Assembly: GCA_951406725.2 (NCBI GenBank)
Contig: OX597817.1
Coordinates: 166,780,001-166,844,000, forward strand
Direction: 5' to 3'
Source of the DNA: Octopus vulgaris
Taxonomy: Eukaryota
DNA length: 64,000 bases
The position numbers and the translations under genes are program-made. Below, in pieces: positions 43,050 through 48,410 of the stretch. Within the stretch, counting starts at the first letter, position 1; each line of letters begins with the position of its first letter. The notes under the pieces are model-generated. The model had not been told where the DNA came from. It saw only the letters and a program-made list of their open reading frames with translations, and made no database searches.

Positions 43050-43227
43050 AGGGAGAGTTCACGAAAGAAACAAAAGACGAAGACAGGTGGTGTACAAAAC
43101 AAACAGATGCATTAGTATAACGCTCAGGAATAGAAAAAGTCTTTTACGTTTCGAGCCTATGCTCTTCTACAGAAAGGGACACAGAAAAAAAACAAGGAGA
43201 GACAAAAAATGTGTGTAGTGGCTAACA
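43050..43227 (-). mobile_element. Short (TA)n-abutting element with a degenerate hammerhead (43141-43176)
   Basis: Minus strand: cttt-CTGTAGA-a-gagc-atag-gctc-GAAAC-GTA-aaag. Homologous to 45281-45475 and 48240-48410. Confidence 0.7.
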
Positions 43228-45280
43228 TATAAATTCAGAATATTAGGGGTGAAAAATTGAACATTAGTTTGATTAATATCAATTTAAAACCAGTTGTCTA
43301 GCATATTAAAATCTAATAATTCACAAAAATTATATTACATACATATGAGGGAGGATACAAATGAAAAGAAACAAAATATTTTGTTTCTTTTCATTTGTCT
43401 TCCTCGCTTACGTTCTGGCGTTTGCTAAATTTTTCTTGAGAACATTCCTTTCTTAGCGGTAAGACCATAGCGGATCTACTTCTAGCATAATGGATGTCCA
43501 TGTAGTGATGATCCCACTTATATGTATGTAATATAATTTTCTGAATCTTCAGATTTTAATATGCTAGACCACTGGTTTTAAATTGACATTAATCAAATTA
43601 GTGTTCAATTTTTCACCCTTATCTTAAATTTATATATATATATATATATATATATATATATATATATACATATGTATGGATGTATGTATATATATATATA
43701 TATATATAGGTATATATATATATATATATATATATATATATATATATATATATATATATATATATATATAAATTATAATTTATGGTATCTAAGAGATACC
43801 TCAACGCTGGAAATACCAGCCAAAACTTGACTCTAAAGATTTGGCTGCTATTTCCACCGCGGAGGTACCTCTTAGATACCCTAAATTATAATTTAGGATA
43901 ACTAAATTATAATTTTAATAATAATTGTTACCTTTGAAGGGGTTTTATTCCCATGCTGGCCACTTGATAAGATCGATATTTAAATTAACGATCTTATCCG
44001 TATATATATACATGTGCATGTCCAGACATGCAACTATATACATTGGAAGACATGCATAAAACAAAACATACAATTTTGCACTTGTACTGGCTCTATATAT
44101 TTACTCACGCACATATAGAAAAAATGCCTATTTGAGGTTTTTTTTTAAATTCCATTGAAGGAGCCTTGGATTAAGGTTCGAAACCGACTCTTTCTCTATT
44201 AGCATGAAATCTTGAAAGCTAGAAATAAAACTGAATAACTACATATATACATATATACATGCTTACATACATACATACACACATACATACATATTCATCA
44301 TCATCATTATCAACATCAATGACATTATTTAATCTAGAGAGACTGCGGGTCAGCGACTGAAGTGGACATAGGACTAGGAAGTCTAGGGGCTCTATGGAAG
44401 ACCAGTAATCACCCATACAACAGGTCACTTCAATCCACGCCACCGATGTCGTCCAAACAGATGGCGGGGACCAATACAAGTTGGCCGCATTGTTCTTGGA
44501 GGAGATGCCAGAACGATGCTGTACACAACTTCGGACAAACTTTGGGACACCAACATCTTATTTGAAGTCAATTATATCGAACCCATCACGTCATTGCTAC
44601 TAGTACATTTTTATCGAGCCCGGAAGGATGAAAGATGCAGTTGACTACTTCTAGATTGAAAAGAGAGCGTAAAGGGCCGGAACAAATACGGCAAAACAAT
44701 TTGTCCGATGTACTAACGATTTTATCGACCGTCCTATATACGTTTATACATACATACATACATACATACATACATACATACATACATACATACACAGACA
44801 GACACAGTTGCATAAATACAAATTCGTAGGCATATACACAAACATATTTCACATAATATACATATATGTATGTGTGCTTATATATATAGATTTATATGTA
44901 TATTCATATCTAGGGAGGGCGCGTGACTTAGTGGTGAGGGTATTCGATTCCCAGTGGCTCATTGTGTCCTTGAGCAAGACACTCTATTCAGAAATAAAGT
45001 GAAGAGACTATATTTCTGAAGCGTACGTAATTAAATGCTTTGAAAATATCGCTATTTGGTTTGACCTCATTGTACTTCTCCCCATATATATATATATATA
45101 TATATATATATATATATATATGCATATATATATATATGCATATATATATATATATATATATATATATATGTATATATATTTATGCATATATATATATATA
45201 TATATATATATATATATATATATATATATATATATATAATATATATATATATATATATATATATATATATATATATATAT

Positions 45281-45475
45281 AGGGAGAATTCACGAAAAAA
45301 AAACAAAAGACGAAAACAGATGGTGTAGAAAACAAACAGATGTATTAGTATAACGTTCGGGAATTTAAAAAGTCTTTAACGTTTCGAGCCTACTATCTTC
45401 CACAGAAAGGAACACAGAAAGAAACAAGGAGAGAAAATAAAGAATGTGTAGTGGCTAGCGATCTATCATGGCGAA
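45281..45475 (-). mobile_element. Second copy of the (TA)n-abutting hammerhead-relic element (motif at 45374-45409)
   Basis: Shares agggaga.ttcacg..aacaaaagacga..acag.tggtgta.aaaacaaacagatg.attagtataacg with the 43050 copy. Confidence 0.7.
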
Positions 45476-45647
45476 TATATATATTTGTTGTGCAAGATTT
45501 TTTATGTGAAGTCGTGTGTTGAAACATATTGTTATATTTCGGAATGGTCATTTTGCCAGTTTAGCCAGTAAAAACACACGCACTATATATTTGATGTTAT
45601 TTTGCTTCAGTGTTATTTATTTTTTACATTAATCTTAATCTTATTTC

Positions 45648-45691
45648 GGCCAGAGTTCTTTCGTCACATCCTGTGACCGCATCAGTGGTCC
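45648..45691 (-). ncRNA. Hammerhead-like motif with a variant core
   Basis: Minus strand: cca-CTGATGC-g-gtcac-aggat-gtgac-GAAA-gaac-TC-tgg. Confidence 0.55.
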
Positions 45692-46407
45692 TTTGTTTTC
45701 TTCTTTCTTATTTGTGTCTCTCCTTACTAACCGTCAGCCATTTTGTATTTCTATTGTATGTCTTCATTTGCGCATGCTTATATCTCTATGTGCGTCTATG
45801 TTTAGTTAGTGTGTGGGGGGATGCCTGTAATATTTGTATCTTCTGTTTATATACGTTCGTGTAATTTGTTTTTGTTGTTGTTGTTTTTGTTTATTCTTAT
45901 TTTGTTCATGTGTTTACTTTCACTTATTATTACTATTATTACGTATGCTTGTATGTATGTATGTATGTATAACAACAATACTAGTAATAATATATATATA
46001 TATATATACACACACACACATATATATATATATATATATATATACATATATATGTATGTATATTTATATATGTATGTATGTATATATATATATGTATATG
46101 CATATATATATACACATACACACACACACACACACATATATATATATATATATATATATATATACATATATGCATGAATGCATGTATGTATTCATGTATT
46201 ATGTATTATGTATGAAGATAGATAGATAGATAGATAGATAGATAGATAGATAGATAGATAGATAGATAGATAGATAGATAGATAGATAGATAGATAGATA
46301 GATAGATAGATATGCCAATTCTGCGTGAATTAGGAATTGGTGGGAGATTGAAATTTTGTAGAGTTATAAGGCTAAACCGTTTATTGACTATAGAAAATAA
46401 ACAAATA

Positions 46408-47218
46408 CGTAGTCTGATCAATAAGTATCCGGACATTTACTATAGTAACGAAGCTAAAGCACGAAGAGCGAAGCTGCTCGGCACAGACTAACCTTCTACG
46501 CTGCTGTGCAGGCACACTAAGTTTTAACGTTCTATATCACTTCCACTATTTACAGCAGTGCTTGGAAGGAAGGTGTTCAGCGTGTGATCGTCGCATTCAC
46601 CATGACAAATTTAAGCAAAAAATCTGTATCAAACTTTGCCAAAATCTTGGCGATACCTGCTCAGAGGCCTACGCAAAATTTTCAGAAATCTTTCTCGACA
46701 CAGTCACGGAGATCTTGTGCAACCGAAACCCAAGTGTCCTTTTGGTCTGCTGCAAGCAGTTTTGGCACAAACTTGGCAGATGCGCGTCTCTTCAGTGATA
46801 ATGGACTGAATTGAACCGTACCTACTCTACACATCCTCTGATAATTCACAGATGGGGATTCGACGATTCCCTCTAACAGCTTTACGCACATCTACGATGT
46901 TTTCCTCAGATCTGCTGATTGCGGGTCTCCCAGAACGTTCGTCAATATCGACATTTTTCGGCCATCCTGAAAACGTTCGAACCACTCGTACACCTGTGTG
47001 CGGCTCACACACTCCTCCCCATACATTTCCTACATAGGCCATTTTACATTTGCGTAGGCCACGTTACAGGTACCACCATGACAACTTTCTCTGTCATGGT
47101 CAATGGGACGATCATACGCGACACACCATCCTCCCCAAGCACTGCTGTAAACAGCGGAAGTGGGCTTGACCGTTAAAACTTAGTTCACATGAATAGCAGA
47201 GTTCACGGTCAATCTGTG
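46408..47218. mobile_element. Rearranged mariner element: two 5' halves in inverted orientation
   Basis: Plus strand: QKICIKLCQNLGDTCSEAYAK (HTH). Minus strand: SRTQVYEWFERFQDGR..DERSGRP..VRGNRRIPICELSEDV..AKFVPKLL. 46482-46680 aligns with the reverse complement of 47048-47218. Confidence 0.85.
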
Positions 47219-48001
47219 GATATTACCTATGTAATATCCATGGATATCAGGTGGATCTTTGTTCATGTATTCATTTCTTCAGGCTATATATATATATATA
47301 TATATATATATATATATATACACGCACACACACACATACACACACACACGCACACACACACACATTATATATGGAAAGGGAGAAAATTTAACGCAGGAAA
47401 AATATAGAATTTGTTTTGGAAATTGCCCCTTAATTTCAAAAACTTGTAATTGTTTTTAAATATATTTACATACATACCAAACTAGTTTCAACAATTTTTT
47501 TCTTTATCAATATATACACGTATATAAAACAATATATATCAATATATACACGTATATAAAACAATGGAATTTTAACAATTTAAATTTGCGCAATAGAAAA
47601 GGTTTAAACAACATTCAATGACGGGGATAAAATCGAAAATGATCGGCGAAGAATATAAAAAAATATTTGAATCATTAAATATTCACAAAATTCAATGACA
47701 GGAGTAAACAATATCAAAGATGATCGATGAAGAATATAAAAAAAATTGGATTACTGAAAGTTCGGTCATATTGAGTTATAGGATAAGTGGTCAAGAGAGA
47801 GAGAAATAAAGAGAGAGACAGCAAAGGGGAGGAGGTTTTTTTTTACAGTTTCTGTCATTTTGCGTGTGGTTTTCTTTTTCCGTCGCGTGCAGGGCTTTAT
47901 TTTATACATACACACATACTCATGCACGCATATACATATACATATAACGTTGGCGATTTTTTTCCTCTGTCATCCCTTTTCTGGATCTTTCCTTCTCCTA
48001 T

Positions 48002-48036
48002 GTTTCCGACGAAGAGCTCCGCTCGAAACGTTAAAC
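48002..48036 (+). ncRNA. Minimal hammerhead-like motif (U4C variant) within a short (TA)n-flanked insert (~47950-48135)
   Basis: gttt-CCGACGA-a-gagc-tcc-gctc-GAAAC-GTT-aaac. Confidence 0.65.
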
Positions 48037-48239
48037 CCTCCTTCTTTCCTTCTTTCCTGAGCGTCCAATAATACTATATTTGTTCCACGTCCTCGCGTTG
48101 TTGTTTTTTTTGTGCTTTCCTGTTTGGATTAACTACATATACATATACATACATATATATATATATATATATATATATATATATATATATATATATATAT
48201 ATATATAAAACCTGCTTTAATCTCCTACACTTTGGGCTT

Positions 48240-48410
48240 ACACATCTCTACTTTTTTATTCTCTGTCTATTTTCTCTTATTCCTTTCTGTTAAAGAGCAT
48301 AGGCTCGAAGCGTAAAAGATTTTCTCACTTTCCCGACCGTCAAACAAATCCACCAGGTTGTTGCTCATATACCTGTCTTCGTCTTTTGTTTGTCTGTAAA
48401 TTTCAACTCC
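48240..48410 (+). mobile_element. Third copy of the (TA)n-abutting hammerhead-relic element (motif at 48283-48318)
   Basis: cttt-CTGTTAA-a-gagc-atag-gctc-GAAGC-GTA-aaag, then acctgtcttcgtcttttgttt.. ending at (TA)n. Confidence 0.65.

What the first reader, a model, noticed from the sequence alone, without database searches (positions are those of the whole stretch)
43050..48410. Cluster of short non-coding hammerhead-bearing elements docked on (TA)n: candidate Penelope/retrozyme-type system
Seen: four ~170-200-bp inserts (43050-43227 minus, 45281-45475 minus, ~47950-48135 plus, 48240-48410 plus) share the layout stem I-CUGANGA-like-A-(gagc/gctc)-GAAAC-GUH-stem I. Each 3' end abuts a (TA)n tract. 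Three are clearly one family. The fourth has a different stem I (gttt/aaac versus cttt/aaag), which looks like compensatory change. All four cores carry substitutions. Inference: these are non-autonomous or pseudo-LTR-only retroelements, processed by a ribozyme, that either target or generate (TA)n. That would tie retrotransposition to the extreme microsatellite load of this genome. I cannot tell whether the family is already catalogued.
Basis: partly seen in the sequence, partly recalled or inferred. Interest (0 to 1): 0.75.

Follow-up and report, generated by a model that had tools for sequence, protein, structure and literature searches.

The report
Hammerhead ends of Neptune retrotransposons
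The four short inserts are leftover end repeats of two known-type Penelope-like jumping genes that land in TA repeats, likely because a short TA run in their own RNA pairs with the cut target; their ribozyme cores carry family-wide changes predicted to weaken self-cutting.

Summary
The four inserts are real, but they are not a stand-alone retrozyme system. They are solo pseudo-LTRs of two sister Neptune-clade Penelope-like elements (A: E1, E2, E4; B: E3). Longer copies run into an RT + CX4CxxC + GIY-YIG ORF; about 115,000 ends are estimated genome-wide.

The core changes are mostly fixed family states. A has U6 (16,025 exact copies against 618 with another base). B has C4 (9,311) or a canonical core (4,898).

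3' ends abut (TA)n in 21 of 24 random copies, against 14 of 156 SINE ends. Only 12 of 367 TA tracts abut such an end, so these elements do not explain the microsatellite load.

The best clue: in both families the templated junction behind the upstream pseudo-LTR holds a fixed 5-9 nt TA run, exactly where terminal copies join genomic (TA)n. This points to pairing-primed internal reverse transcription. Of 60 copies, 49 stop within 84 nt above the core and span the cut site, which fits run-off on uncut RNA. Cleavage and priming are untested. The scan noted this class before in this genome.

The parts
43050..43226 (-). E1, solo pseudo-LTR of Neptune family A (N7 = A subfamily)
   Evidence: Profile hit E 6e-49; 94-95% to the closest copies; 88% to the pseudo-LTR of ORF-bearing L096
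43141..43176 (-). Minimal type I hammerhead of E1; family-state U6, otherwise intact
   Evidence: Sequence; counts
42882..43049 (.). Compound TA/TG microsatellite at the 3' end of E1; short TA run at the joint
45281..45475 (-). E2, solo pseudo-LTR of family A (N7 = G subfamily)
   Evidence: 91-94% to 39 other copies; L006 of this subfamily runs into a linker and GIY-YIG remnant
45374..45409 (-). Hammerhead of E2; U6 plus two private changes that break stem II
45084..45280 (.). (TA)n tract at the 3' end of E2
47945..48133 (+). E3, solo pseudo-LTR of Neptune family B, young C4 subfamily
   Evidence: 95-97% to 39 other copies; B pseudo-LTRs follow RT/GIY-YIG remnants in L251, L253, L260, L261, L263, L317
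48002..48036 (+). Hammerhead of E3; subfamily-state C4 (at 48007), otherwise intact
48134..48207 (.). (TA)n tract at the 3' end of E3
48240..48410 (+). E4, older solo pseudo-LTR of a family A side branch
   Evidence: Profile hit E 1e-32; 84-86% to the closest copies held
48283..48318 (+). Hammerhead of E4; U6 plus private changes at positions 8 and 15.1, predicted dead
48411..48438 (.). (TA)14 tract at the 3' end of E4

Best explanation
The four inserts are solo pseudo-LTRs of two sister Neptune-clade Penelope-like retrotransposons that insert into (TA)n, likely made when the element's enzyme nicks a TA tract, pairs the cut end with a short TA run in its own uncut RNA and copies only to the RNA's 5' end. 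Step 1 (inferred; shown for Drosophila Penelope in PMC2377424): a partial-tandem master is transcribed from a start inside its upstream pseudo-LTR, 60-85 nt above the core. Step 2 (inferred): the GIY-YIG domain nicks genomic (TA)n. Step 3 (junction shown, pairing inferred): the 3'-OH anneals to the 5-9 nt UA run that directly follows the pseudo-LTR in the RNA. Step 4 (end distribution shown, cause inferred): priming behind the upstream pseudo-LTR runs off after about 200 nt and gives the solo copy; priming behind the downstream one gives longer 5'-truncated or full copies. Step 5 (span shown, activity predicted): the hammerhead is copied through uncut. Its fold is kept, but the U6 and C4 cores are predicted to be slow. 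Confidence by step: PLE end 0.97, Neptune 0.9, uncut template 0.75, TA-pairing priming 0.65, run-off origin of solos 0.55.
For: ORF link: 16 of 30 loci found with the linker protein have a family A pseudo-LTR downstream on the ORF strand. Pseudo-LTR-ORF-pseudo-LTR structure in L091, L099, L102; 968-aa ORF in L091. Family B likewise. A and B are sisters (SH-aLRT 100) inside a 99-support clade with P0008/P0012 (quick tree); these match Neptune1_Ap in Fig. S7 of PMC8557442 by eye. Templated TA run: 262 genome matches to the internal junction; 99 of the 100 listed carry a 5-9 nt TA run, two rows being overlaps. Family B has the run and the same downstream motif (L251). In 20 of 20 C4, 18 of 20 canonical B and 15 of 20 A copies a TA run starts at the pseudo-LTR end. 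Targets pre-exist: 25 of 49 short copies have TA on the 5' side too, against 7% background; L235 and L343 sit inside the internal TA tract of a SINE. 5' ends: 49 of 60 lie within 84 nt above C3, none at 85-163. Internal initiation on unprocessed RNA is shown in vitro for the anole element PAc (PMC11167929). Relatives from other animals keep the linker (motif seen in 7 of 16), have a canonical 3-9 core in 15 of 16 and lack TA within 300 nt in 15 of 16.
Against: No biochemical or raw-read evidence; only contigs of runs guessed to be RNA. PAc initiates at a site without homology to the target. The internal TA run could be a relic of an old insertion, though it is kept in two families 58-65% alike in protein. 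The junction pattern allowed only 4-24 nt, so long internal tracts could not match. The transcription start is not mapped. Upstream pseudo-LTRs of long copies often reach far into the 3' UTR, which a single start cannot template. 3' TA runs are longer than 5' runs (median 22 against 6 nt, p 6e-7) and longer than a random-nick simulation gives (31% against 10% at 40 nt or more), so simple insertion does not explain everything. The 60 copies were every fifth pattern hit from the start of contig C1 and needed an exact core. The 16 relatives were picked by eye from 80 loci, are about 8 families, and come from contigs that tend to break at microsatellites.
Confidence: 0.6

Rival explanations
1. The short copies are self-propagating non-autonomous elements: a solo pseudo-LTR keeps an internal promoter, is transcribed with its genomic (UA)n tail, and is re-copied in trans by the Neptune protein, like a SINE. 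This can run beside the best explanation.
For: The 29 closest relatives of E3 are 96-97% alike, and none fetched shows a PLE ORF within 1.5 kb upstream. Every family B ORF seen is broken. Drosophila Penelope has an internal promoter (PMC2377424, passages).
Against: 6 of 20 C4 copies carry long 3' UTR sequence, so C4 masters exist. The B ORF search was seeded from an old subfamily. 5' ends scatter over about 30 nt instead of forming fixed lineages.
Confidence: 0.25
2. TA targeting is set by the endonuclease and its CX2-5CxxC linker alone, without RNA-DNA pairing; the 3' (TA)n is partly made by RT slippage on the short run or by later expansion.
For: The linker hypothesis is stated in PMC8557442. 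PAc needs no homology. 3' runs exceed 5' runs and the simulation; median run is longest for the young C4 set (46 nt against about 28 and 20).
Against: Relatives with the same linker do not end in TA. The 3' joint falls on the templated run in both families. TA on the 5' side and nesting in SINE tracts show existing targets.
Confidence: 0.15
3. The short copies are ordinary 5' truncations by a poorly processive RT primed at the downstream end of full-length RNA.
For: Truncations of all lengths exist. 5' joints often use TA or TG microhomology.
Against: The gap in 5' ends between 85 and 163 nt and the pile-up at 55-84 nt (19 of 20 canonical B copies) are not a smooth decay.
Confidence: 0.1
4. 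One reading: a retrozyme-type system in which the ribozyme cuts monomers or circles that are then inserted.
For: Conserved hammerhead fold. A few internally deleted dimers with units of about 330-500 nt (L012, L026, L343). 68 copies begin at or next to the cut site.
Against: No tandem arrays in the copies examined. The dimers have different breakpoints. Copies span the cut site: 180 of 181 3' parts keep the core, in loci mostly chosen for the core. Most exact cores are non-canonical (25,954 of 30,852, counting all 618 as non-canonical).
Confidence: 0.07

Closest known systems
Neptune-clade Penelope-like elements (Neptune1_Ap; PMC8557442, passages and supplement search)
   Same: DKG motif, C-terminal GIY-YIG with CCHH, CX4CxxC linker, partial-tandem pseudo-LTRs with a hammerhead, microsatellite bias; 50% identity to P0008, which reads like Neptune1_Ap
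   Different: A templated TA run at the 3' joint, no optional 30-40 bp tail seen, family-wide U6 and C4 cores, and about 115,000 mostly solo ends
Minimal hammerheads of metazoan PLEs (PMC4209133, parts 1-2 of 4)
   Same: Type I, extra nucleotide between 9 and 10.1, G10.1-C11.1, palindromic 15.2-16.2, mostly single motifs from truncated PLEs, predicted to need dimers
   Different: The core variant reported in the parts read is U3-A8; U6 and C4 as majority states of large families are not mentioned there
Poseidon PAc of the green anole (PMC11167929, parts 1-2 of 4)
   Same: Internal initiation of reverse transcription downstream of the pseudo-LTR; unprocessed RNA is the template; AT-rich targets
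   Different: PAc starts at a site not homologous to the target and leaves a tail; here the start site matches the target repeat
Hydra-1_Obim and Naiad_Obim / Naiad_Ovul (PMC8557442 supplement)
   Same: Cephalopod PLEs listed with (TA)n insertion preference
   Different: Hydra has DKT, no CCHH and another hammerhead sequence; Naiads have an N-terminal endonuclease. Three motifs of families A and B gave 0 hits in that supplement (line breaks and cut runs can hide hits)
Athena and Coprina endonuclease-less PLEs (PMC8557442, passage)
   Same: A repeat stretch in the element, next to a hammerhead, that matches the DNA end used for attachment
   Different: They use telomeric overhangs and lack an endonuclease; here an endonuclease is present and the target is an internal (TA)n
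Non-LTR retrozymes (bioRxiv 10.64898/2026.07.22.740005, part 1 of 5 and passages)
   Same: Short, non-coding, type I hammerhead, related to PLE pseudo-LTRs
   Different: Defined there as tandem repeats with at least two consecutive complete hammerheads; these copies are dispersed monomers tied to ORF-bearing masters

Membership tests
Endonuclease-bearing Penelope-like element | One ORF with RT and GIY-YIG endonuclease | tested here: met
   968-aa ORF in L091, Pfam RVT_1 E 6e-8. The GIY-YIG did not hit Pfam directly but aligns motif for motif with homologs that carry PF01541. No ORF in the window itself.
Endonuclease-bearing Penelope-like element | Partial-tandem pseudo-LTRs holding a hammerhead | tested here: met
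   L091, L099, L102 for A; L251 upstream of the L252 ORF for B
Endonuclease-bearing Penelope-like element | Optional 30-40 bp tail at one end | tested here: not met
   Terminal copies stop at the TA run; optional tails are visible in relatives such as L366, L390, L393. The feature is optional in the family.
Endonuclease-bearing Penelope-like element | Spliceosomal intron near the 5' end (some families) | tested here: inconclusive
   No clear splice joint in contigs of four runs
Neptune clade | CX2-5CxxC linker between RT and a C-terminal endonuclease | tested here: met
   CX4CxxC in A and B
Neptune clade | CCHH motif and DKG motif | tested here: met
   Two cysteines between the GIY and YIG words, two histidines, DKG in L092
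Neptune clade | RT groups with named Neptune elements | tested here: met
   99-support clade with P0008/P0012 (quick tree, no Nematis or Poseidon reference); their match to Neptune1_Ap is by eye
Hydra clade | DKT motif, no CCHH, CxCX5C linker | tested here: not met
Naiad clade | N-terminal endonuclease, DKA motif | tested here: not met
Minimal type I hammerhead | Stems I and II with covariation, extra nucleotide after A9, palindromic stem III | tested here: met
Minimal type I hammerhead | Canonical core C3 U4 G5 A6 N7 G8 A9 | tested here: not met
   A: U6 in 16,025 of 16,643 exact matches. B-type loop: C4 9,311, canonical 4,898. None of the four window copies is canonical.
Minimal type I hammerhead | Self-cleavage at the GUH site | not testable with these tools
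   Needs a bench assay; one search lacks its control
Non-LTR retrozyme | Tandem repeats with two or more consecutive complete hammerheads | tested here: not met
   No array among 60 sampled copies and 80 random 10-kb stretches; sporadic deleted dimers only
Non-LTR retrozyme | Abundant circular RNA | not testable with these tools
   Only contigs were available

The most novel reading that the evidence does not exclude
These Neptune elements use the UA run in their RNA like a telomerase alignment region: it anneals to nicked (TA)n, can slip and add TA repeats before copying, and so both selects and lengthens the target. Their hammerheads were independently detuned (U6 in A, C4 in B) so that uncut RNA stays the template while the fold is kept for protein binding or protein-assisted cutting, and the detuned lineages out-amplified the canonical ones.
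Probability: 0.2. Interest if true: 0.7.

Novelty: new member of a known kind. Interest (0 to 1): 0.4.

Why it matters
How Penelope-like elements choose microsatellite targets, and what their hammerheads do, are both open questions (PMC8557442, PMC11167929). These families make both testable with natural variants. A templated TA run at the priming point predicts that the target can be switched by changing the RNA, against the view that the protein linker alone sets it. Sister lineages with canonical, C4 and U6 cores allow a direct comparison of cutting rate with copy number. Practically, about 100,000 short inserts in this genome can be annotated as PLE ends, and canonical hammerhead searches would miss most of them.

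Tried and rejected
Rfam scan: swamped by microsatellite matches to miRNA models; no hammerhead among the 150 rows shown of 371. Folding of single motifs: no better than shuffles. PDB sequence search with the ORF: no hit. Expression: no RNA holder listed; contigs of four runs guessed to be RNA cover parts of the element but cannot show ends, strand, circles or level. Empty alleles at 47380-48720: no joint among those shown skips E3 or E4; reads are cut at the repeats. An excess of 5' ends at the cut site could not be judged: 68 copies found, 42 of them directly after TA letters that overlap the site by microhomology (counted by hand), and no control count exists. The first SINE control used an internal point of SINE S1 where it has its own TA tract (55 of 95 with TA); it was replaced by true 3' ends. 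Copy-by-copy decay as the cause of the core changes: rejected by the counts. Hydra and Naiad membership: rejected on motifs. PLEs as the source of the TA load: rejected, 12 of 367 tracts. Dfam and Repbase are not on hand. Lunse et al. 2017 on PLE hammerhead variants is not held (title seen only in a reference list) and may already list these cores. Literature searches; none of the papers read describes a templated TA run as primer site in Neptune elements, and A6U occurs in neither paper listed. Supplements of the bioRxiv preprint are closed and were not seen.
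Full report
Observation. Each has a minimal type I hammerhead layout and ends in TA repeats. E1, E2 and E4 form family A; E3 belongs to family B and shares only the ribozyme region with A. The host genome G000 has 2.8 billion bases in 227 contigs. That it is octopus-like is my inference from repeat content and size, not a tool result.

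Copy number. E2 and E3 each have at least 39 close copies elsewhere (91-94% and 95-97%, only 40 candidates scored). In 80 evenly spaced 10-kb stretches, profile search found 33 merged hits including fragments, about 115,000 per genome. The window's four in 64 kb are near this density; overdispersion between bins is marginal (p 0.053).

What they are. An E2 relative, L006, continues upstream into a thumb, a CX4CxxC linker and the start of a GIY-YIG domain. That peptide has 6,007 candidates in the genome, of which 150 were scored. Of the 30 loci fetched, 16 have a family A end downstream on the ORF strand. L091, L099 and L102 show pseudo-LTR, ORF, pseudo-LTR; L091 holds a 968-aa frame with RT. 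Family B ends follow a CA-rich 3' UTR of up to 2 kb and a related ORF, broken in every copy seen. B is 58-65% identical to A in protein. A and B are sisters within a clade that includes P0008 and P0012 (quick tree of 26 rows, 19 chosen from 120 homologs). Those two match Neptune1_Ap as printed in the supplement of PMC8557442, compared by eye. DKG, CCHH and a C-terminal endonuclease exclude Hydra and Naiad.

The hammerhead. Across 20 representatives from both families and from relatives in metagenome contigs, 90.6% of stem cells pair and 7 of 8 pairs change on both sides (rows are related and were chosen for a visible motif). The odd cores are mostly inherited states. With the family A stem II, position 6 is U in 16,025 exact matches and A, C or G in 618, mostly C among the 100 listed; position 7 takes all four bases. 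With the 3-nt loop of family B, position 4 is C in 9,311 matches and U in 4,898. Relatives from other animals have a canonical core in 15 of 16 cases and C4 in one, so U6 is likely derived. From the literature, A6C and U4C lower activity strongly, though U4C still supports viroid infection (PMC3088659 and PMC7151607, passages). I predict weak cutting; it is untested. E2 and E4 carry further private damage.

The TA link. In the random sample 21 of 24 pseudo-LTR 3' ends meet three or more TA units within 8 nt, against 14 of 156 true 3' ends of two SINEs and 5.8% of random points (p 3e-15). The tracts pre-exist at least in part: 25 of 49 short copies have TA on the 5' side as well (background 7%), and L235 and L343 split the internal TA tract of a SINE. 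But only 12 of 367 tracts of 20 nt or more abut such an end, so these elements use the microsatellite load and do not explain it. 3' runs are longer than 5' runs (median 22 against 6 nt) and than a random-nick simulation. Slippage, a nick near one edge, or a bias to long tracts could each give this.

The priming clue. Where an upstream pseudo-LTR continues into the 5' UTR, the element's own sequence holds a short TA run exactly at the point where terminal copies join genomic (TA)n. A genome search finds 262 such junctions; 99 of the 100 listed have a run of 5-9 nt, nearly fixed within each subfamily, so it is templated (longer runs could not match). Family B has the run and the same motif behind it (L251). 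Relatives that keep the linker end without TA in 15 of 16 cases, some with classical optional tails. The simplest reading is that the nicked target pairs with the UA run and primes internal reverse transcription. For PAc, internal initiation is shown in vitro but without homology to the target (PMC11167929). For Athena and Coprina, repeat-matched attachment is described at telomeres (PMC8557442).

Why most copies are short. In 60 copies picked by core pattern, regardless of length, 49 begin within 84 nt above C3, none at 85-163 nt, and 11 further up. A pile-up followed by a gap fits run-off at the RNA's 5' end after priming behind the upstream pseudo-LTR. Drosophila Penelope starts transcription inside that repeat (PMC2377424). 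These copies span the cut site, so their templates were uncut or rejoined. Only 68 copies of one A subfamily begin at the site, without a control. Against a single start, many long copies have upstream repeats that reach hundreds of bases further, which needs tandem masters, read-through or circles. Self-propagation of solo copies remains possible, above all for the young C4 set.

What is known. Minimal hammerheads in PLE pseudo-LTRs, mostly as singles, are described (PMC4209133, parts 1-2 of 4). Microsatellite bias of Neptune, Hydra and Naiad is described (PMC8557442, passages). An octopus repeat annotation lists 31 recently active Penelope-like families but has no occurrence of hammerhead, ribozyme or Neptune in its main text (PMC13282606, part 1 of 3 and term search). 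PMC6765202 and PMC12602865 were seen as passages only. I could not check Dfam, Repbase or Lunse et al. 2017. Earlier notes of this scan report the same class in this genome and in another.

Verdict. A real feature and a new member of a known kind: solo ends of two Neptune families. The templated TA run and the fixed U6 and C4 cores are shown directly and were not found in the papers read; the mechanism built on them is inferred. Interest 0.4.

Noticed in passing
window 43244-43621: MITE-like element with 85-nt inverted ends (89% complementary) between E1 and a TA tract.
   Followed up: no
window 43769-43895: Short fold-back element, 60-nt arms 7 nt apart, directly after a TA tract.
   Followed up: no
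window 45476-45620; L030, L102: A further repeat abuts the 5' end of E2 and recurs beside TA tracts next to other PLE ends.
   Followed up: no
window 3413-3830 and many loci: A very common SINE has an internal TA/TG microsatellite; 41 of 92 heads in the random sample have no tail within 1.5 kb and 55 of 95 heads end in TA. Head-only copies might arise by priming at the internal tract, perhaps by PLE proteins.
   Followed up: partly
L192 2117-3001, L195, L158: A third, distant PLE family (about 30% identity to A) with its own CX4CxxC linker.
   Followed up: partly
L012, L026, L343: Internally deleted dimers, pseudo-LTR plus 5' UTR piece plus pseudo-LTR, with units of about 330-500 nt and different breakpoints: possible seeds of retrozymes.
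   Followed up: partly
L113, L146, L221, L229, L234: Two PLE ends often share one TA tract head to head or tail to tail, also across families A and B.
   Followed up: no
L091, L102, L221: Very long pyrimidine-rich (A) or CA-rich (B) 3' UTRs of up to 2 kb, and a proline-rich repeat in the N-terminal part of the A protein.
   Followed up: no
window 37730-38284: Three tandem copies of a 185-bp SINE unit.
   Followed up: no
runs X15, X16, X17: Family B, with both C and U at core position 4, is present in contigs labelled as three organisms.
   Followed up: no
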